Source: Hydrurus foetidus (Eukaryota). From it: DNA of 64,000 nucleotides. Shown piece by piece: positions 18,855 to 58,552 of this stretch. A program made the position numbers and the translations under genes. The notes beneath the pieces are model-generated. The model was not told where the DNA came from and made no database searches. It saw only the letters and a program-made list of their open reading frames with translations. The DNA lies in assembly GCA_900617105.1 (NCBI GenBank), contig UYFQ01000005.1, positions 186,001 through 250,000 of the forward strand, in the 5' to 3' direction. The stretch's first letter is position 1. Each line of letters begins with the position of its first letter.

Positions 18855-20133
18855 CGTATATTCAATCCGCCGAGCAGTTAAGCTTGAATTGTTTGATTGA
18901 ACAGGCTGGGTCGGGAGAGGCTGGCAAGACTTTGAGCATTGAAGCTCGTGGGTCAGATAAGTCCCCCGATCCATTATTCGTTCCATCAAAGATCGAACGG
19001 TAACTTGGGCCGCTGCCTTGTGCTGGTGAGCCCGCATACGAGGTGGATCATGAATGGTAACGAAGCTCCTGAATCAAGCATTTTGGCAACGACTGACGTG
19101 CATGTGGGTATCGATGTATCCAAGCTCAAACTTGATGTCGCACGCCTGCGGCATGGGAAGTTTCGAAGCAAGGTGTTCAGTAACAATGTTGCAGGGTTCA
19201 AAGCACTTGTAGCGTGGCTACTTGAAGATGGCGTGACGCTCAGCCAAGCGCACCTGTGTTTAGAAGCCACAGGCCCCTACAGCGAAGCATTGGCCGTTTG
19301 GCTGTGTGATGCTGGATGGCGAATCAGTGTGGTCAATCCAGCCCGTGTGAAGGGATTTGCCCAAAGCGAGCTGACACGGAACAAAACTGACAAAGCAGAC
19401 GCCGCCTTGATTGCACGGTTTTGCGCCGCGCTTGCGCCCGAACCATGGTGCCCACCCAGCATGGCCATTCGCCAGCTGCGCAGCTTGGTAGAGCGGCTGC
19501 AAGCGCTCAAAGACATGCACCAGCAAGAAGTTAACCGCATGGAAGCTGCTCATGCAACGGGCGACAAGCTAACGCAGACCTACATTCGCGAGCATGTGGT
19601 CTATCTGGAGGCCGCGATCAAGACACTGCAAAAGGCCATTGACGACCACATTGCGGGCGAGCCTCAATTGCACAGTGATGCCCAGTTGCTCGCCAGTATC
19701 CCAGGCATAGGGGCAGTGACGCTTGCCAAAGTCATGGCTTATGCTGGCAATGTTGAGCGTTTTACCAGTGCAAAGGCCCTCAGTGCTTTTGCCGGTGTAT
19801 GCCCTCAGCAACGGCTGTCAGGCACCAGCGTAAAGGGGCGCAGCATGATCAGCAGGCGTGGGCATGAGGATTTGCGCCGTTCGCTGTACATGCCTGGCAT
19901 GGTGGCACTTCGTTACAACCCGCTGGTTCAGGAAATGGCGCTGCGCTTGAGAGCAAAAGGCATGGCCCCCAAGGCCATCATTGCTGCGGCGATGCATAAA
20001 TTGCTGCATTTGATCTACGGCGTTTTGAAAACGCGCAAACCGTTTGATGCGAACTGGGCTAAAAATACCGCCACCTTGATGGCAGATTCCGTCATTTTTT
20101 CAGTCAGAACTGTTGACTTTCAAGACGGTATCT
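18855..20133 (+). mobile_element. IS110-family insertion sequence (IS621-like)
   Basis: CT core at 18853-54 and 20132-33; removal restores GCAAGACCTGACCC; circle junction forms TTGACT-17bp-TATATT. Confidence 0.9.
18861..19049 (+). ncRNA. IS110 bridge RNA (approximate limits)
   Basis: LTG GCAAGAC 18924-30, RTG GGGTCAG 18950-56, LDG ACGGTAACT 18997-19005 and RDG ATACGAG 19036-42 match target and donor halves and sit in two stem-enclosed loops. Confidence 0.8.
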
Positions 20134-20135
20134 GA
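19050..20135 (+). CDS. IS110 DEDD recombinase/transposase
   Basis: GIDVSK, LEATG, KTDKADA, SIPGIG, QRLSG (catalytic Ser); GAGGTGG RBS. Confidence 0.95.
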   Translation: MNGNEAPESSILATTDVHVGIDVSKLKLDVARLRHGKFRSKVFSNNVAGFKALVAWLLEDGVTLSQAHLCLEATGPYSEALAVWLCDAGWRISVVNPARVKGFAQSELTRNKTDKADAALIARFCAALAPEPWCPPSMAIRQLRSLVERLQALKDMHQQEVNRMEAAHATGDKLTQTYIREHVVYLEAAIKTLQKAIDDHIAGEPQLHSDAQLLASIPGIGAVTLAKVMAYAGNVERFTSAKALSAFAGVCPQQRLSGTSVKGRSMISRRGHEDLRRSLYMPGMVALRYNPLVQEMALRLRAKGMAPKAIIAAAMHKLLHLIYGVLKTRKPFDANWAKNTATLMADSVIFSVRTVDFQDGI

Positions 20136-26628: not shown

Positions 26629-27540
26629 TTGGTGCGTTTGACTTCCCTTACCGGCCTGTTGCGGCCCAGCCTGCTCGCAAGCCTTCTGGTGACGGGCTGT
26701 GCATCCACCTCGCCCCTGGCCCCGGTGGACGCCAGCACCGTACAGCCCAACGCAGATACTTTTCTGCAGCCCCTGATAGCGGGCCGCACTGCCCCGCACA
26801 TCCTGCTGCTGGGCGAGCAACACGACGCGCCACAGCACCAGCAACTTGAGCGCGATGTGGTTCGCCTGCTGTTGCGTCATGGCCGCTTGGCGGCACTGGC
26901 GCTCGAAATGGCAGAGCAAGGCAAATCCACCGCAAGCCTCAAAACCGATGCCAGCGACGCGCAAGTTCAAGCCGCCCTGGGTTGGAACGAAGCCGGTTGG
27001 CCGTGGGCAGCCTACGGCCCCGCCATCATGCTGGCCGTGCGTGAGGGTGTACCCGTGCTGGGGGCCAATTTGCCCCGCAACCAGCAACGCGACGCTATGA
27101 AAAATGCAGCACTCGACGCACGCCTTACCATCGCCAGCTTGCAAAAACAGCAAGATTTAATTGAAGCCAGCCACTGCGGCCTGCTGGCGGCAACCCAACT
27201 GCGCCCGATGACCCGTATCCAGATCGCCCGCGACAAAGCGATGGCCGATACCCTGGTGCAAGCCCTGAAGCGCACGCCCCCATTAACACCCGAGCAGCGC
27301 AGCTCAGGCCCGCCTTTGGTGCTGCTGTTGGCGGGTAGCGGCCACGCTGACCGGGCGCTGGGTGTGCCGCAGCACCTGCCACCTCAGGTCAAAGTTGTGT
27401 CGATCCGGTTGCAGGCCATGGGCACAGGCCCCACAGACGAGGCCCAGCCTTTCGATGCCGTCTGGCCTACCGTGGCCTTAGCGCCCAAAGACTACTGCGC
27501 AGAGCTGCGTGCCTCAATGCAGGCCCAGCCCAAGCCCTAA
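26629..27540 (+). CDS. ChaN-family lipoprotein
   Basis: Lipobox VTGC, LLGEQHD, LEM, Q.ARD..MA, AGSGH; start approximate. Confidence 0.8.
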   Translation: MVRLTSLTGLLRPSLLASLLVTGCASTSPLAPVDASTVQPNADTFLQPLIAGRTAPHILLLGEQHDAPQHQQLERDVVRLLLRHGRLAALALEMAEQGKSTASLKTDASDAQVQAALGWNEAGWPWAAYGPAIMLAVREGVPVLGANLPRNQQRDAMKNAALDARLTIASLQKQQDLIEASHCGLLAATQLRPMTRIQIARDKAMADTLVQALKRTPPLTPEQRSSGPPLVLLLAGSGHADRALGVPQHLPPQVKVVSIRLQAMGTGPTDEAQPFDAVWPTVALAPKDYCAELRASMQAQPKP

Positions 27541-28581
27541 CACCGCCGTCAGCACCACGACGGCGATAAAAACGGTCTCACCCAGCAGCATCGCCACCGG
27601 CTGCCAACCGAGCTTGAGCAGCTCTTCAAACGAGGTTTTGACACCTGCTGCGGCAATCGCTGTCACCAGCATCCAGCGCGAGGTGTCACCTGCCAGTTGA
27701 ATAATTTTGGGGCTGAACACCCCCACGCTGGCCAGCAGCACCAGCACGATGAACGCGAGCAAAAAGCCCGGTACCAGCGGCACGGCATCACGGGTGGTTT
27801 TGCTGTCGGCGTTCACGTCAAACTGCGCCTCGGGGTCGGTGTTGGCATGGTTGCGGTAGAGCATGGAAATCACGATCACCACCGGCATCAGCAGCATCAC
27901 GCGGAACAGCTTGACCACCGTGGCGGTGTCACCCGCCTCTGGCCCCAGCATCATCCCTGCCGCCACCACCTGTGCCACATCGTGGATGGTGCCACCCAAA
28001 AAGATGCCCGATTGTTCCGGCGTGGCCCCGATCACCTTGAGCACAAAGGGATAAAGCACCATCGCCACGGTGGAAAGCACCGTCACGCCCACCACGGTGA
28101 GCAGCGTGAAGCGCTCGTTTTCTTTGGTTTGCGGCAGCACCGATGCCACCGCCAGCGCCGCTGAAGCACCGCAAATCGCTACCGCTCCGCCTGACAACAG
28201 CCCTTCGTCACGCGGACGCTTGAAGCCGCGTGCCAACAAGGTGCCCACCACAATCGTGCAGCCTGTGGCGCACACGATCAGCAAAGCGGAGCCCAAACCC
28301 AGCTTCGCCACCTGCGACAGCGTGATGCGTGCGCCCAGCAAGGCCACGCCAAAGCGCAGCACTGTGCGGCCACAAAAGCCAATGCCGGGGCCGACTTGCG
28401 GGTTGTTCATCAAAAAATGAAACGCCAGCCCCATCAGCAAAGCATAGAGCAGCTGGGGACCACCGTAATGTTCAGAAACAAAGGTGGCCGCCAGCGCGAT
28501 GACGAGGCACACCAGCGTGCCAGGCAGGTTTTTGGCGACGAACGCCCGCCAGCGTTGCAGAGTGGATGTCACGGCCAGCAT
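27514..28581 (-). CDS. YeiH/putative sulfate exporter family (SuyZ/TauZ-like)
   Basis: LRFGVALLG, AICGASAA, GGTIHDVAQVV, VKLFRV; last gene of the suy operon. Confidence 0.85.
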   Translation of the reverse strand: MLAVTSTLQRWRAFVAKNLPGTLVCLVIALAATFVSEHYGGPQLLYALLMGLAFHFLMNNPQVGPGIGFCGRTVLRFGVALLGARITLSQVAKLGLGSALLIVCATGCTIVVGTLLARGFKRPRDEGLLSGGAVAICGASAALAVASVLPQTKENERFTLLTVVGVTVLSTVAMVLYPFVLKVIGATPEQSGIFLGGTIHDVAQVVAAGMMLGPEAGDTATVVKLFRVMLLMPVVIVISMLYRNHANTDPEAQFDVNADSKTTRDAVPLVPGFLLAFIVLVLLASVGVFSPKIIQLAGDTSRWMLVTAIAAAGVKTSFEELLKLGWQPVAMLLGETVFIAVVVLTAVLGLGLGLH

Positions 28582-28598: not shown

Positions 28599-29606
28599 TC
28601 AAGCGGGGTTGGCGAGTGCTAGCAGCGGGGTCAAGGTGGCAGGGGGCAATTCCACGCCCTCGGCTTTGGCCTTGAGCGCCAGTGTGTTACGGCGGTAGCC
28701 AGGGATGCGCACGCCGTCGTCTGCGAGCATGGCGGCGATCAAGGCTTCCACACGCTCTTCGTAGACCGCCGTGCCACCCAGTGCTGAGGGGTCAATCACG
28801 ATGAAGGCTTGACCGATGCGGGGCACATTGCCCTCGTCCTCAAAGAAGGTATCGACCTCCAGACCAAAACGGGCGCCCGTGAGCGATGTCACCATCAACT
28901 CGATCATCAGGGCCAGCATCGCACCTTTGGAGCCCCCTGTAGAACCGAAAGGCAGCATCGAGCCTTCCATGCCCGCCTTGGGGTCGGTGGTGGGCTGGCC
29001 GTCTTTGTCGAGCGCCCATCCCAGGGGGATGGATTCGCCCTTTTTGGCGGCCATCATCAGCTTGCCACGCGCCACTTCCGAGAGTGACATGTCAATCATC
29101 ACCGGCTCATCGTTCGCGCGAGGGAAAGCGGCGGCCAGCGGGTTGGTGCCAAAAATCGCCCGCTTGCCACCTGCGGCGGGCATGGCAGCGGGGGAATTCC
29201 CCATGGCGATGCCCACCAAACCAGCTTGGGCCACCGCTTCGAGGTGGTAAGCCGCCACGCCGAAATGGTGGCTGTTGGTGACAGCGGCGATGGCGATGCC
29301 CGTCACTTTGGCCGCAGCAATGGCTTCTTGAATCGCCAAGGCACAGGCCGGGAAGGCAAAGCCCTCACCCGCGTCCACCAAAATGGCGCTGGGCTTTTGT
29401 ACCGCGATTTTGGGAACGGCCTGACCGTTGACACGGCCCGTGCGCAAGTGGCCGGTGTACATGGGGATGCGCGATACGCCGTGCGAGGCCAATCCTTGGG
29501 CATCGGCCGCTACCAATGCAGTAGCAGTGCAGTCGGCCTGCATGGGGGAAGCGCCTGCGTTTTGCAAGGCACGGCTGGCGAGGGCATGGATTTCTTGGAG
29601 GTTCAT
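28599..29606 (-). CDS. comC: Ldh_2 family oxidoreductase, likely (R)-sulfolactate dehydrogenase
   Basis: GLASHG, NSHHFG, FGTNP, SKG; sulfolactate context. Confidence 0.7.
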   Translation of the reverse strand: MNLQEIHALASRALQNAGASPMQADCTATALVAADAQGLASHGVSRIPMYTGHLRTGRVNGQAVPKIAVQKPSAILVDAGEGFAFPACALAIQEAIAAAKVTGIAIAAVTNSHHFGVAAYHLEAVAQAGLVGIAMGNSPAAMPAAGGKRAIFGTNPLAAAFPRANDEPVMIDMSLSEVARGKLMMAAKKGESIPLGWALDKDGQPTTDPKAGMEGSMLPFGSTGGSKGAMLALMIELMVTSLTGARFGLEVDTFFEDEGNVPRIGQAFIVIDPSALGGTAVYEERVEALIAAMLADDGVRIPGYRRNTLALKAKAEGVELPPATLTPLLALANPA

Positions 29607-29674: not shown

Positions 29675-30601
29675 TCAGCCCAAAGCCTTGGCGACTTCAG
29701 CCGCGATCATGCTGGAAACGCGCTCGTTGGACTCGGTCGTCACACCGGCCACATGCGGCGTCAGCACGACGTTGGGGCAATTCTCCCAAGGGCTGCCGGC
29801 CTTGAGCGGTTCAGGCTCAAACACATCAAACGCCGCACCGCCCAAATGCCCGGCACGTAAGGCATCGGCAATCGCCGCTTCGTCGGCAATATGGCCGCGA
29901 GCCGAATTGATGAGGATGGCACCGGCCTTCATCTGTGCCACGCGCTCTTTAGAGAGCAGGTTGCGGGTCTCAGGCGTGAGCGGCACATGCAGGCTGACCA
30001 CATCCGACTGCGCCAGCAAGGTGTCCAGCGTAGCGGGTGTGACACCGGTTTGTGCCCACACCGGCGCATCAGCGGCCAGCATCGGGTCATAGGCCACGAC
30101 GGTCATGCCCAGGCCTTGGGCCAAGCCTGCGGTCAAGCGGCCAATGCCACCAAAGCCAATCAAACCCAAGGTTTTACCAGCGATTTCACGGCCATTCGAG
30201 AGGCGAGCACGTGGCCATTTGCCACCTGCCACGGCAGCGCTGTCTTGGTACACGCCACGCAACAGCAGCATGGCGGTGCCGATGACGTATTCCGCCACGG
30301 CCAACGCGTTTGCACCCGTGGCAGGGATCACCTTCATGCCACGCGCTTCGCAGGCGGCTACGTCGATATTGTCCAGCCCCACGCCCAAGCGGCCAATCAC
30401 TGTGGCTTGTTGGCACGCCGCCAACAGCTCGCCACGCACCTGGGTGCGGTTGCGCACGATGACGGCATCGGCATCCGCCACCTCGCGCAGCAGGCGTGCT
30501 GTGTCGTCCACCAGTGCTGGCTCGTAAACCACGGTGTAGTGGGCTTGGAGTGACTCGACAGCTGAGGTATCCATGAATTCGGTGATGACAATTTTTTTCA
30601 T
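29675..30601 (-). CDS. slcC: D-2-hydroxyacid dehydrogenase, likely (S)-sulfolactate dehydrogenase
   Basis: ITEFMD, VRNRTQV, GRLGVGLDNID, GFGGIG, TPHVAG; context. Confidence 0.7.
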   Translation of the reverse strand: MKKIVITEFMDTSAVESLQAHYTVVYEPALVDDTARLLREVADADAVIVRNRTQVRGELLAACQQATVIGRLGVGLDNIDVAACEARGMKVIPATGANALAVAEYVIGTAMLLLRGVYQDSAAVAGGKWPRARLSNGREIAGKTLGLIGFGGIGRLTAGLAQGLGMTVVAYDPMLAADAPVWAQTGVTPATLDTLLAQSDVVSLHVPLTPETRNLLSKERVAQMKAGAILINSARGHIADEAAIADALRAGHLGGAAFDVFEPEPLKAGSPWENCPNVVLTPHVAGVTTESNERVSSMIAAEVAKALG

Positions 30602-30659: not shown

Positions 30660-31655
30660 TTACTCCGCCTTGATACGCCGTACTTTGATGATCTCACGCC
30701 AACGTGCAATGTCTTTTTGCACAAGGGATGCAAACTCAGCTGGCCCCAAACCTGTGACACTGAAGCCTAAGGCGTTGATACGCGACGCCACATCAGCCGT
30801 CCTGACAATGCGCAACGCCTCCAGCGCGATCCGGTCGATGATGGCTTTGGGGGTTCCTGCAGGCACCATCAGACCCGTCCAGTTTTCAAGTTCCATGTCG
30901 GCCATACCCTGCTCGGAGAAGGTAGGTACATCGGGCAACAGGGCGTGGCGCTTCACCGAGGTGATGGCCAAGGCCCGCAGCTTGCCGGATTTGATGAAGG
31001 CTACCGACTCGGGTAAGTTCGACACCACAAAGTCAATCTGACCACCCATCAAATCGTTCATGGACGGTGCACCGCCTTTGTAGGGAATATGGGTCACGTC
31101 CAACTTGGCATTGCCCGCCAGCAATTCCAGGCCCAAATGAGGCGGCGTACCGTTGCCAGACGACCCAGCACTCAGCGGTTGGGTTTTGGCCCGCTCCAAG
31201 AACTCCTTCAAGGTTTTAGCCGGATTGTTGACGCTAACCACCAACACCAGGGGACTGCTGGCCAGCTGCACAACGGGCACCAGGTTTTTATCAAGGCTGT
31301 AGGGGAGCGCACTGAACAAGGACTGGTTCACGGCGTGCGACAGCGTCACGGCCAACCAGGTGTAGCCATCTGGCGGCGACTTGGCCACCAAATCAGCGCC
31401 CAAGTTCGCACTGCCACCAGGTTTGTTGTCCACGATAACCGGTTGCTTCAACGATTCAGTGAGTTTTTGCCCCACCAAACGGGCCATTACATCGGTCAAT
31501 CCCCCGGCAGCGAAGGGCACGACGTAGCGGACAGAACGAGAAGGGTAATCACTGAAGGCAGCGTTCACGCCAGGGGACTGCGCCCAAGCAGGCAGCAAAA
31601 CGCCTGAACCTAACGTAGCCAGGGCGGCAGAAAAAGTACGGCGGGTAGCGGTCAT
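30660..31655 (-). CDS. Bug/TctC tripartite tricarboxylate transporter substrate-binding protein
   Basis: VPFAAGGLTD..AR, HIPYKGGAP, PDVPT. Confidence 0.9.
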   Translation of the reverse strand: MTATRRTFSAALATLGSGVLLPAWAQSPGVNAAFSDYPSRSVRYVVPFAAGGLTDVMARLVGQKLTESLKQPVIVDNKPGGSANLGADLVAKSPPDGYTWLAVTLSHAVNQSLFSALPYSLDKNLVPVVQLASSPLVLVVSVNNPAKTLKEFLERAKTQPLSAGSSGNGTPPHLGLELLAGNAKLDVTHIPYKGGAPSMNDLMGGQIDFVVSNLPESVAFIKSGKLRALAITSVKRHALLPDVPTFSEQGMADMELENWTGLMVPAGTPKAIIDRIALEALRIVRTADVASRINALGFSVTGLGPAEFASLVQKDIARWREIIKVRRIKAE

Positions 31656-31782
31656 CAGGGGAAGCTCCTGGGAATGGCGTGCGAGCAGAACATGAACCCA
31701 CAGCCCATGCGCGCCACCGCCAGCGTTAAAAAACGCCGCCGCACACAGCGTGTACAACGGCAGACACCTTTAACCGAAAGGT

Positions 31783-32958
31783 TTAAGCGCTTTCAAACAA
31801 GCGCGTCATCACGAACTCACGGTGACCCAACGCCTCGGCTGCGGTGAAGCGGCCATTGATGGTCGCCATCATCACATCCAGCAGTTGGTCGCCGGTTTCG
31901 TCCATGGTGCGCTCGCGCTGGAGCAGACCAGAGCAATCCACATCGATGTGCTCGCTCATGGTGCGCACGGTGCGGGGGTTGGCGCAAACTTTGATCACGG
32001 GAACAATCGCGTTGCCAATCACGTTGCCTTGGCCTGTGGGGAAGAAATGCACCACAAAACCTGCCGCAGCGCACAAAGTCACCATCTCGGCAGCGGCCGA
32101 GGACGAGTCCATGAACCACAGGCCAGGATGACTCGGCATTTCAGCTTTGTCCAACACGCCGTCAACCGTGCATTTTTTGCCGATCTTCTGGATGTTGCCC
32201 AGTGCTTTTTCTTCGATGGTGGTCAAGCCGCCAGCAATATTGCCCTTGGTGGGCTGCGAATCAGACAAGTCGGTCGTCTTATTGCGCTCGATCATGGCCT
32301 GGTAGCGGTTGAACATGGCCATGAACTCGTCACGAACCTTGTCGGTTGCGCAACGCGCAGCGACGATCTTCTCGCCACCGGTGATCTCGGAAGTCTCACC
32401 GAACACCAGCGTCGTACCCAGACCGTGCAGTGTGTCAAAGGCATTGCCGCAGGTGGGGTTGGCACCGCAACCGGAGGTGGTGTCGGATTCGCCGCACTTG
32501 GTGGAAACCCACAGCTCAGAGATAGGGCACTCAACGCGGTGCTGCGAAGTCGCATGCTGAACGTACTGCTTGGCAACCTTGGACGCCTTCATGATGGTCT
32601 CATGGTCACCGTGGCCTTCAATGCCAAATCCCACTACCGGCTTGCCCGTTTTAGCGATGCCTTCAACGACTTTTTGTGTCCAAGCGTCTTCAATGCCGAT
32701 CACGATCACGGCTGACACGTTGGGGTTGCTGCCCGCACCAATCAAGGTTGCAAAGTGCAGATCCAGGTCGGCACCGAATTGCAAACGGCCATAGGGGTGC
32801 GGAATCGCCATCGTGCCTTTGATGTTGTGGGCAACGGCTTCGGCAGACGCGTTCGACAAATCGTCCAACGGCAAAATGATCACGTGGTTGCGCACGCCCA
32901 CACGGCCGTTTTCGCGGCGATAGCCCCAGAAGGTGGAGTCTTTGGTCAGAAATGACAT
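31783..32958 (-). CDS. suyB: (R)-sulfolactate sulfo-lyase beta subunit (UxaA family)
   Basis: [38 protein letters not shown]. Confidence 0.88.
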
Positions 32959-32972
32959 GGGATGTTCCTTGC

Positions 32973-33254
32973 TTACCAGCGTTTGGTTTTGATGTTGTGG
33001 ACATGGGCGTGCTCGCCCACCTTGATGGCGGCAACCACCTTGCCGATGTCAACGCCGTATTTGATAACGGTGTCGCCAACAGCCAAGGCCTTCATGGCCA
33101 CTTTGTGGCCCAAAGGAATATCAGCCGCGCACGGAATTTGAATCGTGCGGTTTTCATCAAGAATCAGCGCAGTGAGCTGTTGACCAGCTTTAACGCCTTC
33201 TGTGACCACAACAGCGACGCTGTCATTAGGGTCATGCAATACACAATGGATCAT
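32973..33254 (-). CDS. suyA: (R)-sulfolactate sulfo-lyase alpha subunit (SAF domain)
   Basis: [26 protein letters not shown]. Confidence 0.88.
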
Positions 33255-34630: not shown

Positions 34631-35830
34631 TTACGCTGCCGAATGTTGGGTGCGACAGGTCTTCATATAACCAGCCATGAAGGCGACCAATACCTCCGCT
34701 TGATGCACGCTGACACCGTTGTACAAACTGGCTCTCAAGTACTTCCCAACCCCAAATGGGGTCAGCGTTCTTAAGCCGACGATTCCCCGCTCCCAGCCTT
34801 GGACCAAAAAGTCTCGAGTGGTTTCCTCGTCGCCACCGGCGACATCAAAGGGGATGTTCATGCGGCTGCGGATGGAGGGATCTGCGATAGGGGTGGAATA
34901 AAACCCCTCCGATCTGTCGATCAAGTCGTACAGCATGGCCGACTTTGCAATAGCCCGGCGTTCCATTTCATGCACGCCACCTTGCGCGATCATCCATTGC
35001 ATATAGATGTTGACCACCTCGACGTTGAAGGTGGCAATGGTGTTCCACAAATTGCCTTCTCGGACATTGGTGGTATAGCAAAGCACGCCCGGGCAGTACT
35101 TGCTGGGTGTGCCCAGTAAGTCCTTTCGAATCACGCACAGCGTCAACCCGGGGTGACCAATGTTCTTGGACGCGCAGGCATACAAAATGCCCACGTTGCA
35201 GCCCACCCAGTCAATGGGCTTGGTGGAAAAGTCTGACGATGCGTCAATCACCAGGGGGGCTTTGATGCCCAGCTTGGGAAGCTGATGCAACTCAATCCCG
35301 TTCACTGTTTCATTCGAGCAAAGATACACGTACTTGGATTCGGGATCCAAATGCTCAAAAGATGGGTTGTGGGTAAACGTGCCATCTTTGTTCTCGGAGG
35401 AAACAACGATAGGGTGGCAGTATTTTGAGGCCTCGGACAAGGCGCGTTTCGACCAGGTGCCATTAACCAGGTAGGTCGCTTTTTCATCCCCATTAGGGCA
35501 AAGGTTCAGCGGAACCGCAGCAAACTGCCCGTGCCCACCGCCGTGCATGAAAAGAATTTCATACTGTTCAGGAATGTCCATCGCCATGCGGCAATGTTGC
35601 ACCGTATTGGCAAGAATATCCAAAAATTCAGGAGACCGATGAGAGAGGTACATCGAGCACATGCGCTGCGCGTCGAACAAGGCCTTGATGCTTGTCTGTA
35701 CTTCAGCTGCAAGTGATGTAGGCCCAGGGCTAAAATTCAGCGGCGGCACACCGCTCGGCGGAAGCAACGATCCAAGCATGGCCGGATGAGTGTCGGCTGG
35801 TTTCAATGAGGCTTGGTTAAAGCTGGTCAT
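34631..35830 (-). CDS. Divergent SerC-like class V PLP aminotransferase
   Basis: NFSPGP, SHR, GGGHGQF, NETVNG, ASKNIG, RASLYN. Confidence 0.85.
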   Translation of the reverse strand: MTSFNQASLKPADTHPAMLGSLLPPSGVPPLNFSPGPTSLAAEVQTSIKALFDAQRMCSMYLSHRSPEFLDILANTVQHCRMAMDIPEQYEILFMHGGGHGQFAAVPLNLCPNGDEKATYLVNGTWSKRALSEASKYCHPIVVSSENKDGTFTHNPSFEHLDPESKYVYLCSNETVNGIELHQLPKLGIKAPLVIDASSDFSTKPIDWVGCNVGILYACASKNIGHPGLTLCVIRKDLLGTPSKYCPGVLCYTTNVREGNLWNTIATFNVEVVNIYMQWMIAQGGVHEMERRAIAKSAMLYDLIDRSEGFYSTPIADPSIRSRMNIPFDVAGGDEETTRDFLVQGWERGIVGLRTLTPFGVGKYLRASLYNGVSVHQAEVLVAFMAGYMKTCRTQHSAA

Positions 35831-35866: not shown

Positions 35867-36631
35867 TTACTTTGCGGTAAAGCCACCATCAATCATGATG
35901 GTCTGTCCCGTGATGTAACTGGATGCATCGCTAGCCAAAAATACCGTTAAACCGTAAAGATCGGTCAGCTCGCCGTTTCGGCCAATACAGGTTTGATCCG
36001 CATTTTTTTGCGCAGCCTCAGCATTGCCAAAAACAGGCGCAGTTAGCGCAGTGGGGAAAAAGCCTGGCCCGACGGCATTACAGGTAATGCCTTTGCTAGA
36101 CCATTCTTGCGCGATTGCTTTGGTCAACTGAACCACGCCGCCTTTGCCTGCACCGTAAGGTGCGCTGTTTCCAAAGGCGCGGTAACTTTGCAGGCTAGCG
36201 ATATTGATGACGCGTCCCCAGCCTCGCTTAGCCATTGCGGGAGCTAATGCCTGCGTCAAGAAGAACGGCGCACTGAGGTGCAAGTTAATTTGAGTCTGCC
36301 AGCTCTCCGGTGTGACTTGCGCAAAGGGTTCGCGCAGGTTCACACCTGCAGCGTTGACCAGAACATCAACGGGGCCAAGTGCCAGTGCGGCTGCCACACC
36401 CGCTTGCGCAGCTTCGATATTTGCCAGATCGCAAGACAGGCACTGCACGGCAATGCCCTCGGCACGCAGCTTAGCGGCGGCCTGTTCCAGCGCGTCCAGG
36501 CGGCGCGCCATCAGCATCACCTTGGCCCCAGCTAGGCCCAAGGCCATGGCCATGGCTTCGCCGATGCCGGAATTCCCCCCGGTCACCAGTGCCGTCTTGC
36601 CACCGAGACTGAACAATTTGTCGAGCTTCAT
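35867..36631 (-). CDS. hpsO: SDR, DHPS 2-dehydrogenase type
   Basis: [17 protein letters not shown]; directly after hpsN. Confidence 0.75.
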
Positions 36632-36636
36632 CCTGC

Positions 36637-37953
<1,317 letters not shown>

Positions 37954-41760: not shown

Positions 41761-42768
41761 ATGCACAACAGAATCCGTATCGAAGACGTAGCCCGTGCAG
41801 CAGGCGTGTCCACCGCCACCGTATCGCGTGCGCTGTCGCAGCCTGAGCTTGTACGGCCTGATACGCGAGAGTTAATTCAAAAAACGGTTGCTAAATTGGG
41901 CTATGTGCCCGATGCCGCAGGCCGTGCCCTGGCCTCGGGCCGTACCCGCACGGTGGGCTGCGTGATCCCTACGCTAGACCATGCCATCTTCGCCCGCAGT
42001 ACCAACGCATTGCAGACTACGCTGGCGCAAGCGGGCTATCAACTGCTGGTTGCCAGCCACAACTATGACCCGATGCAGGAGATGGCGCTGGTCGAGGCGC
42101 TGCAACAGCGAGGGGTGGACGCTCTGGTACTGGTGGGTGCGGAACGCCAAGCCAAACTTTGGAAATTGCTGGCCGCATGGCGCAATCCGGTGCTGCTGAC
42201 GTGGGCCTGCGACCCACGCCTGCCCTCGGTAGGGTTTGACAACCACGCCATAGGCGATCTGGCGGCGAGCCATCTGCTGGAATTGGGGCACCGGCGCATT
42301 GCAATGATCTCGGGCTTCATGGCGCACAACGACCGCGCCCAAGCCCGTGTGGCAGGCCTGCGCCACAGGCTTAAGGCTGCCAATCTGAGCCTGCCGGCCA
42401 GTGCCTTGAGTGAGCAAACACTGAACCTCAGCGGAGGCCGCAAAGGACTGATCGCACTGATGCAAGCGCGCATACGCCCTACAGCCATCGTCTGTGGTAA
42501 CGATTTACTGGCCGCAGGCGCACTGCTAGAGGCCCAGCGCCAGGGCTTGAAAGTGCCAGGCGATCTGTCTATCTGCGGCATAGACAACCATGAGCTGGCG
42601 GCAGAAACCAACCCCGGCCTGACCACAGTGAGTCTGCCCGCGCAAGACCTGGGGCGCATCACCGCCACACAAACCCTGGCGGCACTGGCAGGCGAGCCGA
42701 TTGCACAGCAATCACTGCTGCCGTTTGAACTGTTGGTCAGGGGAACGACGGCGACACTGAAGTCCTGA
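41761..42768 (+). CDS. LacI-family regulator (HpsR-like)
   Basis: IEDVARAAGVSTATVSRAL; divergent from the hps operon. Confidence 0.9.
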   Translation: MHNRIRIEDVARAAGVSTATVSRALSQPELVRPDTRELIQKTVAKLGYVPDAAGRALASGRTRTVGCVIPTLDHAIFARSTNALQTTLAQAGYQLLVASHNYDPMQEMALVEALQQRGVDALVLVGAERQAKLWKLLAAWRNPVLLTWACDPRLPSVGFDNHAIGDLAASHLLELGHRRIAMISGFMAHNDRAQARVAGLRHRLKAANLSLPASALSEQTLNLSGGRKGLIALMQARIRPTAIVCGNDLLAAGALLEAQRQGLKVPGDLSICGIDNHELAAETNPGLTTVSLPAQDLGRITATQTLAALAGEPIAQQSLLPFELLVRGTTATLKS

Positions 42769-42818: not shown

Positions 42819-43529
42819 TCAGCTTTGACCTACCAAACGCGCCACATAGTCGTGGTCACGCGTGTCCACCACCGAGACGCGCAACTCTGCAGGCTGCTGG
42901 TTAAAGGTGAATGCGACCCGTTCCAAGTGCAGCACTGGAGCTCCCTGATTCAAGCCCAGTACGTGGGCCGATGCGGCACTGCACGGCTCAGCCCTTACAC
43001 GCTCGTCCGCGCCAACCACCGTGATGCCAAATGCACTTTGGTACAGCTCGTAGATCGTTCCGTGGCGTTGGGTGAATTGCGCCTGATTCAAGCCTGGGAA
43101 CTTGGTCGCGTCGAGCACGATGTGGTCGTGAATGACACGCCGCTCCTTCAGCGACAGAGCATTTTCTATGCGGTACACCGCCGCCCCGACCGCAATGCCG
43201 AGCGCTGGTGCTTCTGCGGCCAAAGCGCGACTTTTGCCAAAATGCAGCAACTGCACCTGCGGAAACTCTGGCGCACCCTGGCGTGCAGCGATCTTGAAAA
43301 ACTGGAACATAAACCGCTCGTTGTCCAGCTTACCTACAAAGGTGCCACGGCCTTGCTGGCGCACCAAAATATGGTCAGCGACAAGCTCATCGACAGCTCG
43401 CCGTACAGTGCCAATCGACACCCCAAAGCGCTTGGCCAATTCACTCTCATTGGCCAGGCCACCGCCGGGCGGCACAGCGCCCGAAACGATATCGGCGACC
43501 AGTTTTTGTTTGACTTTACGGTAGAGCAT
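42819..43529 (-). CDS. GntR/HutC-family regulator (UTRA)
   Basis: ESELAKRFGVSIGTVRRA, QGRGTFV. Confidence 0.9.
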   Translation of the reverse strand: MLYRKVKQKLVADIVSGAVPPGGGLANESELAKRFGVSIGTVRRAVDELVADHILVRQQGRGTFVGKLDNERFMFQFFKIAARQGAPEFPQVQLLHFGKSRALAAEAPALGIAVGAAVYRIENALSLKERRVIHDHIVLDATKFPGLNQAQFTQRHGTIYELYQSAFGITVVGADERVRAEPCSAASAHVLGLNQGAPVLHLERVAFTFNQQPAELRVSVVDTRDHDYVARLVGQS

Positions 43530-48895: not shown

Positions 48896-49690
48896 TCAAC
48901 CGACAACCGACACCTGCGCCAGACCAGCATCCACGATCAAACTTTGACCCGTGATCCCTGCGCTCTCTTCACTGGCCAAGAACAACGTAGGCCGGGCCAC
49001 ATGCTCTGATTCCAAGCGGAATTTGAGGCATTGCAGGTCAATGAATTTTTGGTCTTCTTCGGGGTTGCGCCACAGAGCACTTTGGCGCTCGGTGACGATG
49101 GCACCGGGCACCAAGGCGTTCACGCGGATGCCGAATTCGCCCAGTTCTCTGGCGAGGCTGCGGGTCATGCCGCTGATCGCCGCTTTGCTGGTGGTGTAGC
49201 CGATCAAGTTGGGGCGGCCACGCATCCAGCTGATGCTGCCCATGTTGATGATGCTGCCGGGGAGCCCTGCGGCGCGGAGTTGGCGGGCCACGGTTTGGGT
49301 GGCGAAGACGTGGTGGCGCAAGTTGAGGTTGAGGCAGTTGTCCCAGTAGTCGGGGGTTAACTCGTCCAGGCTGTGGCGATCGTCGCGCCCGGCATTGTTG
49401 ACCAGCACCTGGATAGGGCCGAAGTGCTGGCCTACGCGCTCCAGCAGGGCTTGGACAGCAGGGACATCGCGCACATCGCAGGCTTCGTAGTACGGTGTGT
49501 GACAAAGGGGCGGTTGGCCTGCTTGGGTGATCTCAGCGATCAGCGCATCGCCGCCGCCTGGTTTAGTGCCGCAAAACGCAACTTTCGCGCCTTGCGCAGC
49601 AAACGACTTGACCAGCTCAGCGCCTATGCCTGAGCTGCCGCCTGAAATGAAGACGGTTTTGCCGGCCAGTGTGGGGTAGCTTGCACGCAT
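48896..49690 (-). CDS. SDR sugar 1-dehydrogenase (candidate sulfoquinovose dehydrogenase)
   Basis: SGGSSGIG, NNAGRDDRH, YTTSK; XylB-like. Confidence 0.8.
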   Translation of the reverse strand: MRASYPTLAGKTVFISGGSSGIGAELVKSFAAQGAKVAFCGTKPGGGDALIAEITQAGQPPLCHTPYYEACDVRDVPAVQALLERVGQHFGPIQVLVNNAGRDDRHSLDELTPDYWDNCLNLNLRHHVFATQTVARQLRAAGLPGSIINMGSISWMRGRPNLIGYTTSKAAISGMTRSLARELGEFGIRVNALVPGAIVTERQSALWRNPEEDQKFIDLQCLKFRLESEHVARPTLFLASEESAGITGQSLIVDAGLAQVSVVG

Positions 49691-49742
49691 GAATACTCCT
49701 GAATAAATAGCAGCATACGCCTATAGGACGTGCTGAAATGGG

Positions 49743-50600
49743 CTAAATAGGTTTGATTTTTACCTGCATCCAGGCTACCGTGGTGGCCTGGGGCTGTAGG
49801 ACGCGCACGCCCAGTGCCACCAACGCATCTTGCGTGCGCAGCGTGCCCAAGGCGTTGTTCACGTGGCTGACGGGTTCGATGGCGATAAAGTCTTTGCTGG
49901 GGTGGGTGAACACCACCAGATGGTTCAGCGACGATTGCAACTGGGTTTGAAACTGGCCATCGCGCAGGTGCAGCGTGCCTGCCCAGCCGTCAAAGCAGTG
50001 GTCTATGTCCAGCGCGTCACAGACGGCTTGCAGGCCGGAGGAGGTTTCGCGGTGTGCAGGCAGCTTGTCGTCGCCCATCGCCCAGCGGCCCGCCGCTTCA
50101 AACTGCACTTGGCTGCCAGGGCGTTTGACGAGAAACGGATGCCAGCCCAAGCCCACGGGTGCCGGGTGAGCGGCCTCGTTGGTAAGTGCCAAGCGCAGGG
50201 TGAGGCCTTGGTCGTCCAGTAGAAAGGTTTGCATGCAGGTGAACGCGAACGGCCATGCGGTATCGGGCAAGTGGGTGTAGCGCAAAGTGGCGGTGGTGTC
50301 GCTGGCAGTGACAACCTCCCAAGCACGCTCCCAAGCTGCGCCGTGGATGGCGTGGGCTTCGGGGGCGAAATTCGGCGTTAAGGGGTACACAGCGCCCGCC
50401 CAGTGCATTTGCGCGTTGCCGATGCGGTTGGAAAAGGGCACCAGCGGGTAGCTGGCGCTGGTGCGCACGCTGTGCAACCGCGCTGCGGGCGTGGAGCGCA
50501 GCACGGGCACGCCTGAGCGCCACAGGCCAGCGATGCAGCCACCCAGATCCGGCCTCAGCGCCAAGCGCAAATCACCGCAGACCAGCGCCAAACCCGCCAT
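49743..50600 (-). CDS. Aldose 1-epimerase (candidate SQ mutarotase)
   Basis: PFSNRI, AIHG, GWHP, IEPVSH. Confidence 0.85.
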   Translation of the reverse strand: MAGLALVCGDLRLALRPDLGGCIAGLWRSGVPVLRSTPAARLHSVRTSASYPLVPFSNRIGNAQMHWAGAVYPLTPNFAPEAHAIHGAAWERAWEVVTASDTTATLRYTHLPDTAWPFAFTCMQTFLLDDQGLTLRLALTNEAAHPAPVGLGWHPFLVKRPGSQVQFEAAGRWAMGDDKLPAHRETSSGLQAVCDALDIDHCFDGWAGTLHLRDGQFQTQLQSSLNHLVVFTHPSKDFIAIEPVSHVNNALGTLRTQDALVALGVRVLQPQATTVAWMQVKIKPI

Positions 50601-51724
50601 CAGTAGCCTGCGGGCAGCACGTCGCTCAGGGCCACGGGCAGACCGGTTTCTATGCTGCGGTGAGCGGCCAGGCCAGTGGCCACGCTGCGCATACCGTCTT
50701 CCAGGCTGACCTCAGGGGGCAAGCCTTGGCGGATGGCGTGGGCGAACTTTTGGTGTTCGATGTACGAAGCACCAAAGTGCTGCCCGGCGTAGCGGATGTT
50801 GGTGTCCCACACCCGGCGCACGGCCACGCCTTTGCCGCTGCCCGAAGGCTGGCCCCATACTTTGCGCGTGCCCCAGTCTTCACGGCGACCGTGGCGCAGG
50901 GTAAGCGAGGGAATCAGCGATTCCAGCTTGCCCTCGTCACCCACCACGGTGACATGCTCGTTGTCCACGGAGTTCTCAGCGAACATGCACAAATCGAGCA
51001 TGGCGCGGGCACCGCTGGCGTATTCGACGATGACGTAGGCGCTGTCCAGAATGTCGGGTTGCTGGCCGTCGTAGCGCTCGTTCAGGTGGTTGACACGTTG
51101 TGCACCCGAGGCGAACACGCGCACCGGCTTCTCTTGCAAGATGAAATCCATCAGGTTGAAGTAGTGGCAGCATTTCTCAACCAAGGTGCCACCGGTGTTG
51201 GCGGTGAAACGGTTCCAGTCGTCCACCTTGGGGTAAAACGGCTCGCGGTGTTCACGAATCGCCACTTGGTGCAAGCGCCCTACCGCCCCACCATGGGCCA
51301 TGCGGATCATCTCGGCCACGGGCGGCATGTAGCGGTACTCTTGCGCTACCCACACCAGCGGGCTGCGGCCCTGGGCTTTTTGCAGCAAATCCAGACAATC
51401 GGCCACGTTGGTGCAGAGCGGTTTTTCGATCAATAAATGCGCCTTGGTGGGCAAGGCCAGGCGCATCACATCGGCGTGGGTGAAGTTGGGCGTGGCAATG
51501 ACGATGGCATCACACAGATCACTGTCAAGCAGGTCTTCAAAGCGCTCAAACAGGCGGGGAGTGACGGCGGCACCACTCAGCAAGGCGCTGGCGGCTTGGC
51601 GGCTGGCCTCGTGAGGGTCGGCCAGAGCCACAACTTGCGCACCGTCGAGCGCCCGGATGTTTTCGATGTGCTCGCGGCCCATGCTGCCGCAACCAATGAT
51701 GCCGTAGCGAATTGTCTGAATCAT
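50600..51724 (-). CDS. Gfo/Idh/MocA protein, probable NAD+-dependent sulfoquinovosidase (GH188 type)
   Basis: GCGSMG, IEKP, EYRYMPP, REHREPF..KV.DWNRF...TGGTLVEKCCH; cluster context. Confidence 0.65.
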   Translation of the reverse strand: MIQTIRYGIIGCGSMGREHIENIRALDGAQVVALADPHEASRQAASALLSGAAVTPRLFERFEDLLDSDLCDAIVIATPNFTHADVMRLALPTKAHLLIEKPLCTNVADCLDLLQKAQGRSPLVWVAQEYRYMPPVAEMIRMAHGGAVGRLHQVAIREHREPFYPKVDDWNRFTANTGGTLVEKCCHYFNLMDFILQEKPVRVFASGAQRVNHLNERYDGQQPDILDSAYVIVEYASGARAMLDLCMFAENSVDNEHVTVVGDEGKLESLIPSLTLRHGRREDWGTRKVWGQPSGSGKGVAVRRVWDTNIRYAGQHFGASYIEHQKFAHAIRQGLPPEVSLEDGMRSVATGLAAHRSIETGLPVALSDVLPAGY

Positions 51725-51761
51725 GATGTTGAGTTGAAAAAGGGAAAAGTAGATGGCTGAA

Positions 51762-52592
51762 TCACCCTTTGAGACCGCCTTGCGTCAGCCCACCTACCAC
51801 ACGCTCTTGAAAGATCGCAATCAGCACCGCAATCGGTACGATCGCCACAATCAAGGCGGCGGAGATGATGGGCCAGGGGAAACTGAACTCACCTTGGTAC
51901 AGGCTGATGCCCACCGGCAAAGTGCGCATGGTGGCCCCGGAGTTGAGCGACAGGGCGAGCAAAAACTCGTCCCAAGCGTTCACAAAGGCCAAAATGCCAG
52001 CGGTAAAAATACCGGGTGCCGCCAAGGGCACCACCACCTGCCACAAGGCCCCCATGCGGGTACAGCCGTCGATCATGGCGGCGTTTTCCAGGTCTTTGGG
52101 AATGCTCTGGAAGAAGCTCACCAACACCAGCGTACACACGGGCAGATTCAGCACCACATAGGGCAACACCAGGGCGGTATAGCTGTTGAGCAGACCCAGC
52201 GTGCGCATGGTCTCGAAAATCGGCACCAACAGCGTGACCAGCGGGAACATGCTGGACGCGACAATGGCCGTCAAAATCATCTGCTTGTGCTTGAGGTTCA
52301 GCCGAGCAATGGCGTACGCGGCAAAGGCGGAAACCAACAGCGATAGCGCGGTAGATACCAGCGCCACCCAAAGGCTGTTGCCCAAATAGCGCAGCAGTGG
52401 CTGGTCGGTGAAGGCCTGCACGTAGTTTTCAAACGTAGGGCTGTGCGGGAACCAGGTGATCGGTTTTTGCACCAGCTCCACTTCCTTTTTCAAGGAGGTG
52501 AACAAAATCCACACGGCGGGGAAAAAACCGTTGAAGACCACCATCACCGCTGCGGCAATGCGCAAGTTGGTGGAAGACCATAAATTGTTCAT
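51762..52592 (-). CDS. Carbohydrate ABC permease
   Basis: LENAAMIDGC, AWDEFL. Confidence 0.9.
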   Translation of the reverse strand: MNNLWSSTNLRIAAAVMVVFNGFFPAVWILFTSLKKEVELVQKPITWFPHSPTFENYVQAFTDQPLLRYLGNSLWVALVSTALSLLVSAFAAYAIARLNLKHKQMILTAIVASSMFPLVTLLVPIFETMRTLGLLNSYTALVLPYVVLNLPVCTLVLVSFFQSIPKDLENAAMIDGCTRMGALWQVVVPLAAPGIFTAGILAFVNAWDEFLLALSLNSGATMRTLPVGISLYQGEFSFPWPIISAALIVAIVPIAVLIAIFQERVVGGLTQGGLKG

Positions 52593-53494
52593 GCTGAGCG
52601 TCCGATCCGCTTGAGGTAAAAGCCCGTGACCACCAGCGAGAGCAAGAACATGCACACCGCCAATGTAGAACCATAGCCCACATCGAGGTAATCGATGGTG
52701 GTTTTGTGGATGAGCATCGACAGGGTTTCGGTCGCATTGCCCGGTCCGCCTTTGGTCATGGTGTAAGGAATATCAAAGGTTTGCAGCGCAGTAATGGTGC
52801 GAAAAATCATTGCTACGATGATGCTGGGCATCAGCATAGGGATGGTGATTTGCCAAAACTGTTGCCAGCGGCTCGCACCGTCCACCTCCGCAGCTTCATA
52901 GAGCGTTTTGGGGATCATTTGCAAACCGGCCAACAAAATCAGCGCCATGAAAGACGATGTTTTCCAGATGATGGTGATGCAAATCGCCGCAAACGCCCAG
53001 TTGGGTTTAAGCAACCACATGGTGGCGGATTCCCCACCCAGGCGACGCACCACGTCGTTGATGACACCGTATTCGGTGTGGAAGAACCACGCAAAAATCA
53101 ACCCACAAAAGCTCAAAGGCAAGGCCCAGGGCAGCAGCAGCGCCAAGCGCACCGGCCACTTGCGCTTGAACGGCAGGTTCGCCAACATGGCCAACCCCAA
53201 ACCCACCACCAAGGCACCGGGGACGGTGATGAAGGTAATGAGCAGGGTGTTTTTGGTGGCGTTCCAAAAATCAGCGTCATTGAAGACATCGGCGTAGTTG
53301 CTCCAGCCCACAAACTTGACAGCACCGGAGCCGCCCGACAGGCGCAGGTCAAAAAAGCTGTTGAAAATCAACTTGCCTATCGGGTAGGCCACGATCATCG
53401 CCAGCAAAATGAAGGCCGGAGCCAGCAGCAAAAAGCCCAGTGTCTTTTCAGACGGGTCACGCAAGGTGTCACGCAGTTTGGCAAACACAGGCAT
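52589..53494 (-). CDS. Carbohydrate ABC permease
   Basis: LYEAAEVDGA, GGPGNAT. Confidence 0.9.
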   Translation of the reverse strand: MPVFAKLRDTLRDPSEKTLGFLLLAPAFILLAMIVAYPIGKLIFNSFFDLRLSGGSGAVKFVGWSNYADVFNDADFWNATKNTLLITFITVPGALVVGLGLAMLANLPFKRKWPVRLALLLPWALPLSFCGLIFAWFFHTEYGVINDVVRRLGGESATMWLLKPNWAFAAICITIIWKTSSFMALILLAGLQMIPKTLYEAAEVDGASRWQQFWQITIPMLMPSIIVAMIFRTITALQTFDIPYTMTKGGPGNATETLSMLIHKTTIDYLDVGYGSTLAVCMFLLSLVVTGFYLKRIGRSA

Positions 53495-53498
53495 CCCC

Positions 53499-54761: not shown

Positions 54762-54837
54762 GGTTGTCTCCGTTATAAATACCGTCGAGGTGAATCGTGA
54801 GGGGTAAAACGAGCAGCGCAGTGCTGCGAAAGGGGTC

Positions 54838-55914: not shown

Positions 55915-55956
55915 CTTGTCTCCTGGTTTTTTTAGGGTTAAAAGTACAAAGCCGCG

Positions 55957-58487: not shown

Positions 58488-58510
58488 AAGAGTTCGGTAC
58501 TTGGCGTTGA

Positions 58511-58526
58511 GTGTTACCGCTAACAT
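58511..58526. promoter_or_regulatory. LacI-family (gluconate repressor type) operator
   Basis: GTGTTA-CCGC-TAACAT matches ATGTTA-N4-TAACAT between divergent genes. Confidence 0.75.
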
Positions 58527-58552
58527 TAACCGCTGTTGGCTACACTGTCATA

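What the first reader, a model, noticed from the sequence alone, without database searches (positions are those of the whole stretch)
34631..35830. SerC paralog with a remodelled phosphate pocket inside hpsNOP: candidate cysteate/cysteinolate aminotransferase
Seen: the PLP lysine and first His-Arg pair (SHR) are kept, but the second pair of SerC (GHR..GG.RAS) reads GLRTLTPFGVGKYLRAS and AQKN is ASKN; the gene lies between hpsO and hpsP. Known: both His-Arg pairs bind the phosphoserine phosphate; cysteate is a sulfonate analogue of phosphoserine. Inference: it converts cysteate to sulfopyruvate (feeding ComC) or cysteinolate to 2-oxo-3-hydroxypropanesulfonate, the HpsO/HpsP intermediate, giving an entry route for algal amino-sulfonates.
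Basis: partly seen in the sequence, partly recalled or inferred. Interest (0 to 1): 0.8.

Follow-up and report, generated by a model that had tools for sequence, protein, structure and literature searches.

The report
Diatom-derived cysteinolate transaminase in DHPS operon
A freshwater bacterium carries, inside its operon for eating the algal sulfur compound DHPS, a second and remodelled copy of a serine-pathway enzyme whose closest named non-bacterial relatives are diatom proteins, and it likely strips the amino group from the algal osmolyte cysteinolate, which would also point to the unknown diatom enzyme that makes this compound.

Summary
The 399-aa SerC-fold protein keeps the PLP lysine, the first His-Arg pair and the carboxylate arginine, and has lost the second His-Arg pair. 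It lies between hpsO and hpsP. It is not the housekeeping serC: 5 of 5 relatives tested carry both. It belongs to a compact family with three parts: freshwater Burkholderiales, marine bacteria and diatoms (56-69% identical for named diatoms). The freshwater clade nests inside the diatom sequences, and bacterial monophyly is rejected (AU p=0.007). Context favours cysteinolate over cysteate. Marine copies sit beside hpsO (8 of 26 loci) and a cysteinolate-racemase (CuyC) orthologue (7 of 26), with no comC or suyB seen. In freshwater genomes the gene and CuyC exclude each other (0 of 21). An unrelated omega-aminotransferase fills the same operon slot in 2 of 9 operons that lack it. Best reading: a D-cysteinolate transaminase feeding HpsO, HpsN and SuyAB. 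Cysteate is the main rival. No activity is shown, and one paper disputes that HpsO and HpsP use the 2-oxo intermediate. Algal cysteinolate biosynthesis is unsolved, so the diatom orthologues are direct candidates.

The parts
34631..35830 (-). SerC/PSAT paralogue, class V PLP aminotransferase; candidate cysteinolate transaminase of the diatom-type family
   Evidence: trees
35867..36631 (-). hpsO, short-chain (R)-DHPS dehydrogenase
   Evidence: 9pvq 343 bits, HpsO 8wwf 260 bits
33562..34563 (-). hpsP, zinc-dependent (S)-DHPS dehydrogenase
   Evidence: 8wwd 283 bits, next hit 136 bits; that 8wwd is HpsP is inferred from the neighbouring entries 8wwe and 8wwf
36637..37950 (-). hpsN, (R)-DHPS 3-dehydrogenase
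   Evidence: 8v35, 773 bits
38027..41561 (-). SsuA/TauA-type ABC importer: binding protein, ATPase and two permeases; substrate untested
41761..42768 (+). divergent LacI-family regulator (hpsR-like)
   Evidence: conserved at this place in relatives
42819..43529 (-). GntR/UTRA regulator that travels with the cluster in several relatives
32973..33254 (-). suyA-like small subunit; start inferred from the 93-aa length of its homologues
   Evidence: (TIGR03248 N-terminal match)
31783..32958 (-). suyB-like sulfolactate sulfo-lyase subunit (UxaA family); name inferred from family and context
30660..31757 (-). TctC-type binding protein
29675..30601 (-). D-2-hydroxyacid dehydrogenase, slcC-like; family assignment of SlcC is recalled
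28599..29606 (-). comC-like Ldh_2 dehydrogenase; best model L-sulfolactate dehydrogenase, 230 bits, below its cut-off of 500
27514..28581 (-). YeiH-family putative sulfate/sulfite exporter

Best explanation
The gene encodes a second, remodelled SerC-fold PLP enzyme inside a DHPS operon, and it likely transaminates the algal osmolyte D-cysteinolate to 2-oxo-3-hydroxypropanesulfonate, which HpsO would reduce to (R)-DHPS for HpsN and SuyAB. Shown: the fold, the residue changes, the paralogy, the neighbourhoods and the tree. Inferred: (1) a transamination, since all PLP-binding residues and the catalytic lysine are kept; (2) cysteinolate as substrate, from gene context; (3) the D isomer, because freshwater carriers lack the racemase CuyC, D is the form that predominates in nature, and D-cysteinolate has the geometry of L-serine with its carboxylate replaced by CH2-SO3, so its sulfonate could pair with the kept Arg366 while its neutral CH2OH faces the pocket that lost His-Arg; (4) the freshwater clade was likely acquired from a diatom, where the same reversible reaction would join cysteinolate and DHPS biosynthesis. 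The gain for the bacterium would be carbon, nitrogen and sulfur from one more algal sulfonate.
For: Paralogue: 5 of 5 genomes hold a canonical serC at 502-568 bits and this gene at 316-321 bits. Context: hps genes flank it in 19 of 21 genome loci, hpsO is directly upstream in 18 (17, one cut copy), and comC lies in the locus in only 9. Marine clade, 26 loci, many short: hpsO 8, CuyC-like 7, hpsP 2, hpsN 1, comC 0, suyB 0. The CuyC-like neighbour is 76% identical to A0A1W2DY92, which is listed in supplement file 4 of PMC12814064 together with the assayed G1V6E7. The TRAP binding protein there best matches the DHPS-binding BwHpsK. CuyC was found in 0 of 21 carrier genomes but in 20 of 301 family genomes with the same query. 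Among DHPS-type hpsN genomes the split is 0 of 19 against 6 of 12, Fisher p=0.0013. Of 9 operons fetched that lack the gene, 7 have hpsO joined to hpsP and 2 carry an omega-aminotransferase (AptA model, 609 and 620 bits, cut-off 500) in the same slot; one further cluster reads hpsN-cuyC-hpsO-hpsP. HpsN does not act on D-cysteinolate (PMC12814064). Diatom members: Fragilariopsis OEU10008.1, Chaetoceros, Thalassiosira, Skeletonema. Freshwater clade sister to Fragilariopsis at 96/93, inside Chaetoceros at 96/95; AU p=0.0073 against one bacterial clade. Cysteinolate and the 2-oxo compound were both detected in DHPS-producing diatoms (PMC11131964).
Against: No activity, expression or ligand-bound model exists; the AlphaFold model is a monomer without PLP. 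PMC11131964 reports that Ruegeria HpsO and HpsP oxidise carbon 3 to sulfolactaldehyde; if so, nothing known consumes the 2-oxo product. The two compounds have the same mass, and three other papers keep the 2-dehydrogenase model. The pocket gains His100 and Arg129, which could hold a sulfonate in the side-chain site as cysteate needs. ComC-like genes occur in 18 of 21 carrier genomes. In 7 marine loci the gene sits beside CuyC, which a D-specific enzyme would not need unless it runs towards cysteinolate. 2 of 21 genome loci and 9 of 29 freshwater-clade metagenome loci show no hps gene nearby (a tenth, L108, has hpsO). Five marine loci have TauE with taurine-type transporters or MocR regulators instead. 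The exclusion count uses related and incomplete genomes. Haptophytes and dinoflagellates also hold cysteinolate, but no named member from them appeared.
Confidence: 0.5

Rival explanations
1. It is a dedicated L-cysteate:2-oxoglutarate aminotransferase (Coa). It makes sulfopyruvate, which ComC reduces to (R)-sulfolactate for SuyAB, and in diatoms it would do the cysteate step proposed for DHPS synthesis.
For: Arg366, Trp126 and His64-Arg65 are kept and Arg129/His100 gained, which suits an alpha-amino acid with a monoanionic side chain. ComC-like genes in 18 of 21 carrier genomes; CuyA over cut-off in only 4 of 21. CuyC plus HpsN yield L-cysteate, which would explain CuyC adjacency. The Coa gene is described as unidentified in Ruegeria.
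Against: The gene tracks hpsO, not comC or suyB (0 of 26 marine loci, 9 of 21 genome loci). It excludes CuyC in freshwater genomes. An omega-aminotransferase fills the same slot. General aspartate aminotransferases already transaminate cysteate in methanogens. The SlcC/ComC pair explains comC without it.
Confidence: 0.25
2. It acts on a different amino-sulfonate or isomer: L-cysteinolate after CuyC, taurine, or a terminal amine such as 3-amino-2-hydroxypropanesulfonate that gives sulfolactaldehyde. In some hosts it would serve nitrogen scavenging with sulfonate export through TauE.
For: CuyC adjacency in 7 of 26 marine loci; TauE in 5, taurine-ABC binding proteins in 3, MocR in 4. Sulfolactaldehyde is the reported HpsO/HpsP product. 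An earlier unchecked note describes another SerC copy beside xsc.
Against: Freshwater carriers lack CuyC, and HpsN already oxidises L-cysteinolate. Two of the TauE loci already hold a class III aminotransferase. No xsc appeared among the neighbours that were annotated (not every ORF was scanned).
Confidence: 0.17
3. It is unrelated to sulfonates, for example a serine or phosphoserine transaminase isozyme carried along by chance.
For: It passes one SerC model cut-off. Some copies lie in unrelated neighbourhoods.
Against: Two distinct clades of the family sit in or beside hps operons, including one marine-clade copy in the same slot (L057). A canonical serC is present. The loop change is invariant in 126 rows.
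Confidence: 0.08

Closest known systems
Phosphoserine aminotransferase SerC/PSAT (class V; human 8A5V, Arabidopsis 6CZX-6CZZ, E. coli 1BJN)
   Same: Same fold (TM 0.84, rmsd 2.1 A), PLP residues, first His-Arg pair and carboxylate arginine.
   Different: 35-38% identity only; second His-Arg pair replaced by an invariant RTxTPF loop; Gln before the lysine is Ser; His100 and Arg129 gained; extra copy in a sulfonate operon.
hpsRNOUP-suyAB DHPS cluster of Cupriavidus pinatubonensis (as described in PMC11382572)
   Same: hpsN, hpsO, hpsP, suyAB and a LacI-type regulator; HpsN aligns over its full length at 773 bits.
   Different: ABC importer instead of HpsU, and a PLP enzyme inserted between hpsO and hpsP.
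CuyC-HpsN-CuyB-CuyA route for D-cysteinolate (PMC12814064)
   Same: Same proposed substrate; a PLP enzyme gives entry into HpsN chemistry; CuyC orthologues neighbour the marine copies.
   Different: That route racemises and keeps nitrogen until CuyA. The route proposed here removes nitrogen first and needs no racemase. CuyC is a DegT-family protein, unrelated in family.
Cysteate aminotransferase activity (Coa; MA1816 in Methanosarcina)
   Same: PLP transamination of a C3 amino-sulfonate.
   Different: Done by general aspartate aminotransferases or unidentified genes; no link to HpsO or diatoms is described in the passages read.

Membership tests
SerC/PSAT (functional phosphoserine aminotransferase) | Class V PLP fold | tested here: met
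   Pfam PF00266; Foldseek TM 0.84 to human PSAT
SerC/PSAT (functional phosphoserine aminotransferase) | PLP-binding residues and catalytic lysine (Trp, Thr, Asp, Lys, Asn-Thr) | tested here: met
   126 of 126 family rows; Gln before the lysine is Ser or Pro
SerC/PSAT (functional phosphoserine aminotransferase) | First His-Arg pair and carboxylate-binding Arg | tested here: met
   His64, Arg65, Arg366 in 126 of 126
SerC/PSAT (functional phosphoserine aminotransferase) | Second His-Arg pair in the gate loop | tested here: not met
   Leu356-Thr357; 0 of 126 rows have it; role
SerC/PSAT (functional phosphoserine aminotransferase) | Curated equivalog score | tested here: inconclusive
   Above NF003764 cut-off, below TIGR01364 cut-off
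SerC/PSAT (functional phosphoserine aminotransferase) | Is the genome's only serC | tested here: not met
   5 of 5 relatives hold a canonical copy; the window's own genome is not held
SerC/PSAT (functional phosphoserine aminotransferase) | Transaminates phosphohydroxypyruvate | not testable with these tools
   needs an assay
hpsNOP-suyAB DHPS cluster | hpsN, hpsO, hpsP orthologues in one operon with suyAB | tested here: met
   suyAB named by family and context only
CuyC cysteinolate racemase | DegT/DnrJ family PF01041 | tested here: not met
   only PF00266 matches
Coa cysteate aminotransferase | L-cysteate:2-oxoglutarate activity | not testable with these tools
   defined by activity; no sequence model was found to test against
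Coa cysteate aminotransferase | Linkage to comC and suyAB | tested here: inconclusive
   comC in 9 of 21 genome loci and 18 of 21 genomes, 0 of 26 marine loci

The most novel reading that the evidence does not exclude
This family is the missing algal enzyme that interconverts D-cysteinolate and 2-oxo-3-hydroxypropanesulfonate in diatom sulfonate biosynthesis. Freshwater Burkholderiales took the gene from a diatom and placed it in their DHPS operon to run the producer's own reaction backwards, giving a racemase-free route for cysteinolate.
Probability: 0.35. Interest if true: 0.9.

Novelty: new variant of a known kind. Interest (0 to 1): 0.75.

Why it matters
DHPS and cysteinolate reach millimolar levels in phytoplankton, and papers of 2024-2025 still call their algal biosynthesis unknown or not fully understood. 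The bacterial operon context gives a function clue for a diatom gene that databases label only as phosphoserine aminotransferase or hypothetical. Named diatom proteins (OEU10008.1, EJK58373.1, A0A6S8XSC8) can be assayed directly. If right, it adds a second bacterial route for cysteinolate, a marker gene for it in lakes and marine sediments, and a case of an algal gene captured by the bacteria that feed on the alga. Even under the cysteate reading it would name a gene for an activity described as unassigned.

Tried and rejected
Own genome: not held, so paralogy was tested in five relatives only. Durham et al. 2019 is not held; it may name a diatom aminotransferase candidate that I could not check. 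Literature: ten searches. One search asked for 'cysteinolate aminotransferase', 'cysteinolate transaminase' and 'cysteinolic acid aminotransferase' and found no paper with these phrases; the library lacks most subscription journals. Supplements of PMC12814064 hold no 'PF00266' or 'phosphoserine'; supplements of the other papers were not opened. ESM Atlas: only generic SerC clusters. Whole-record search of marine metagenome loci was not possible, so hpsN, comC or cuyA elsewhere in those genomes is untested. Composition: GC 0.53 and GC3 0.65 are within the range of the operon, so no recent-transfer signal. A racemase role replacing CuyC was rejected because the two genes are adjacent in 7 marine loci. 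A compensating lysine in the new loop was rejected because position 363 varies. The class III neighbour in L037 could not be tied to a solved taurine transaminase. One careful tree did not finish and its quick version was used; one search gave no tree. No complex was predicted.

Full report
Observation. The ORF at 34631-35830 (-) encodes 399 aa with no internal stop. It matches Pfam Aminotran_5 and the SerC models at 317 bits, above one curated cut-off and below the other. The AlphaFold model (mean pLDDT 92, monomer, no ligand) overlays PSAT structures at TM 0.84. In PSAT the phosphate of phosphoserine is held by two His-Arg pairs and the carboxylate by a separate Arg and a Trp (passages of PMC6043687 and PMC10031235). 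Here His64-Arg65, Trp126 and Arg366 are kept; the second pair aligns to Leu356-Thr357 in a loop three residues longer; AQKN reads ASKN. Across 126 family rows (the window, 87 of the stored homologues and 38 locus proteins, picked by me for the tree) the loop residues Thr355, Thr357, Pro358 and Phe359 are invariant and none has the His-Arg/Lys pair, which 11 of 11 canonical rows keep. The family also fixes His100 (125 of 126) and Arg129 (124 of 126), at positions that the Arabidopsis paper places at the cofactor phosphate and the substrate phosphate. The pocket is rebuilt, not just emptied.

Surroundings. The gene lies in one strand with an SsuA/TauA-type ABC importer, hpsN, hpsO, then hpsP, suyAB-like genes, a TctC protein, slcC-like and comC-like dehydrogenases and a YeiH exporter. 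A scan of species genomes returned 22 loci, 21 of them at 83-93% identity; 20 are titled Burkholderiales or Betaproteobacteria and one Cytophagales, which looks mislabelled. hps genes flank the gene in 19 of 21. Five of five genomes tested also hold a canonical serC. The gene is an accessory: 2 of 301 family genomes hold it, against 14 of 301 with a full-length HpsN at 77% identity or more.

The family. Homologue searches found a compact family: only 11 of the top 150 representatives at 50% clustering carry the loop motif. Named members include Fragilariopsis cylindrus, two Chaetoceros species, several Thalassiosira species and Skeletonema dohrnii (56-69% identical to the window protein), unnamed MMETSP transcripts (57-70%), Vibrio sp. 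JC009, Psychromonas sp. and an Oligoflexales bin. The Fragilariopsis and T. profunda proteins lie on contigs of 0.95 and 2.0 Mb, so they are not stray bacterial reads in transcriptomes. In four trees the freshwater bacterial clade is sister to a group with Fragilariopsis and lies inside Chaetoceros (96/93 and 96/95 in the mixture-model tree of 22 rows rooted on canonical SerC). Holding 10 bacterial rows together against 9 others is rejected at p-AU 0.0073 (LG+G4, Oligoflexales left out, grouping chosen after the first tree was seen). The simplest reading is transfer from a diatom to the freshwater clade. The position of the marine bacterial clade shifts between trees, so the origin of the whole family is open. 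That diatoms also keep a canonical PSAT is recalled, not tested.

Which substrate. Four lines favour cysteinolate. First, in 26 loci of the marine clade (many short) the neighbours are hpsO in 8, a DegT-family PLP gene in 7, hpsP in 2, hpsN in 1, and comC or suyB in none. The DegT protein is 76% identical to A0A1W2DY92, which stands in supplement file 4 of PMC12814064 with the assayed cysteinolate racemase G1V6E7; I take that file to be the paper's list of 911 CuyC candidates. Its nearest named relatives are from sulfate reducers. The TRAP binding protein of these loci best matches BwHpsK, which binds DHPS. A transaminase between HpsO and CuyC joins the ketone to cysteinolate. Second, CuyC was found in 0 of 21 freshwater carrier genomes, while the same query found it in 20 of 301 family genomes, mostly beside a second HpsN. 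Among DHPS-type hpsN genomes the split is 0 of 19 against 6 of 12 (p=0.0013; genomes are related and incomplete). Since HpsN does not act on D-cysteinolate, carriers need another entry. Third, of 9 operons fetched from the 12 genomes without the gene, 7 join hpsO to hpsP and 2 hold an omega-aminotransferase in the same slot; that such enzymes prefer beta- and omega-amines is established knowledge, and cysteinolate is a substituted taurine. Fourth, by CIP reasoning D-cysteinolate has the geometry of L-serine with CH2-SO3 in place of the carboxylate, which fits a kept Arg366 and a lost phosphate clamp; this is inference only.

Against. L-cysteate fits the residues equally well, comC-like genes are in 18 of 21 carrier genomes and CuyA in only 4 of 21 over cut-off. 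PMC11131964 (section 21 read) assigns sulfolactaldehyde, not the 2-oxo compound, as the product of Ruegeria HpsO and HpsP; the two are isomers, and passages of PMC12814064, PMC11382572 and PMC13335735 keep the racemase model. Two of 21 genome loci and 9 of 29 freshwater-clade metagenome loci show no hps gene nearby. Five marine loci have TauE with taurine-type transport or MocR regulators. No named haptophyte or dinoflagellate member appeared, though these groups hold cysteinolate. Nothing here shows activity or expression of the window's gene.

Comparison with what is known. It works like a class V transaminase but fails the defining second His-Arg pair of PSAT, so it should not be filed as SerC. 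The operon is the known hpsNOP-suyAB type with an added enzyme. The published cysteinolate route uses CuyC, HpsN, CuyB and CuyA (PMC12814064, parts 1-3 of 5 and supplement searches read). That paper calls algal cysteinolate biosynthesis unknown; PMC11131964 says DHPS synthesis is thought to pass from cysteinolate through the 2-oxo compound and detected both in diatoms. The freshwater diatom Navicula pelliculosa is reported to hold both cysteinolate and DHPS (passage of PMC8703288). PMC12713407 and bioRxiv 2020.10.26.355578 were read as passages. Durham et al. 2019 and Mayer et al. 2010 were seen only as cited. My ten searches found no description of this family or of a cysteinolate transaminase, within a library that lacks most subscription journals.

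Verdict. A real, conserved and apparently undescribed SerC-derived family shared by diatoms and sulfonate-degrading bacteria. Odds: D-cysteinolate transaminase 0.5, cysteate transaminase 0.25, other amino-sulfonate or isomer 0.17, unrelated 0.08. Diatom-to-bacterium transfer of the window's clade about 0.8. Interest 0.75, because one enzyme assay would test an open question in algal sulfur metabolism.

Noticed in passing
L125:6778-8130 and L126:2793-4103 (genomes G072, G271): An omega-aminotransferase paralogue (73% between the two, at most 59% to other family copies) sits between hpsO and hpsP; a second candidate cysteinolate transaminase of unrelated class.
   Followed up: partly
L131:7852-12216 (G073); also L116-L121, L129, L130: A second HpsN type (about 60% identical to the window's) lies directly beside cuyC in many Comamonadaceae-family genomes, in one case as hpsN-cuyC-hpsO-hpsP; likely a dedicated L-cysteinolate dehydrogenase clade.
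   Followed up: partly
L057:1-11223: An hps operon 69-82% identical to the window's, but the gene in the slot belongs to the marine clade (57%), so the slot was filled or replaced twice.
   Followed up: partly
L005:7551-9170, L002:12224-17188; similar-sized ORF in L008: Choline-sulfatase-like genes with TctC proteins are inserted in or beside the hps operon in several carriers; L002 also has cuyA and a TauA-like ABC system.
   Followed up: partly
L037, L038, L049, L054, L056, L058: Marine copies beside TauE, MocR regulators and taurine-type ABC or TRAP transporters, suggesting use of an amino-sulfonate as nitrogen source with export of the product.
   Followed up: partly
L012, L019, L074, L080, L083, L091, L093, L094, L097-L099: Freshwater-clade copies standing alone, some beside an EamA transporter or a phage Gp49-like/HTH pair, suggesting the gene moves on its own.
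   Followed up: no
proteins P0193, P0199, P0201, P0206: Thalassiosirales members carry long low-complexity C-terminal tails that share a short conserved motif of unknown role.
   Followed up: no
proteins P0365-P0367, P0369, P0372, P0377; loci L103, L107: Deeper-branching relatives with the same loop but TPKN, APKN or SSKN at the lysine; mostly unnamed, one from EukProt; may extend the family to other algae.
   Followed up: partly
L007 (JASGCK010000020.1): Titled Cytophagales but its operon is 72-90% identical to the window's and the genome was drawn in the family sample of Limnohabitans; the label is probably wrong.
   Followed up: no
window 48896-59383 (-): A sugar-acid catabolic cluster: IlvD/Edd dehydratase, HpcH aldolase, sugar ABC importer, Gfo/Idh/MocA, aldose epimerase and SDR.
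   Followed up: no
window 18939-20135 (+): IS110-family transposase.
   Followed up: no
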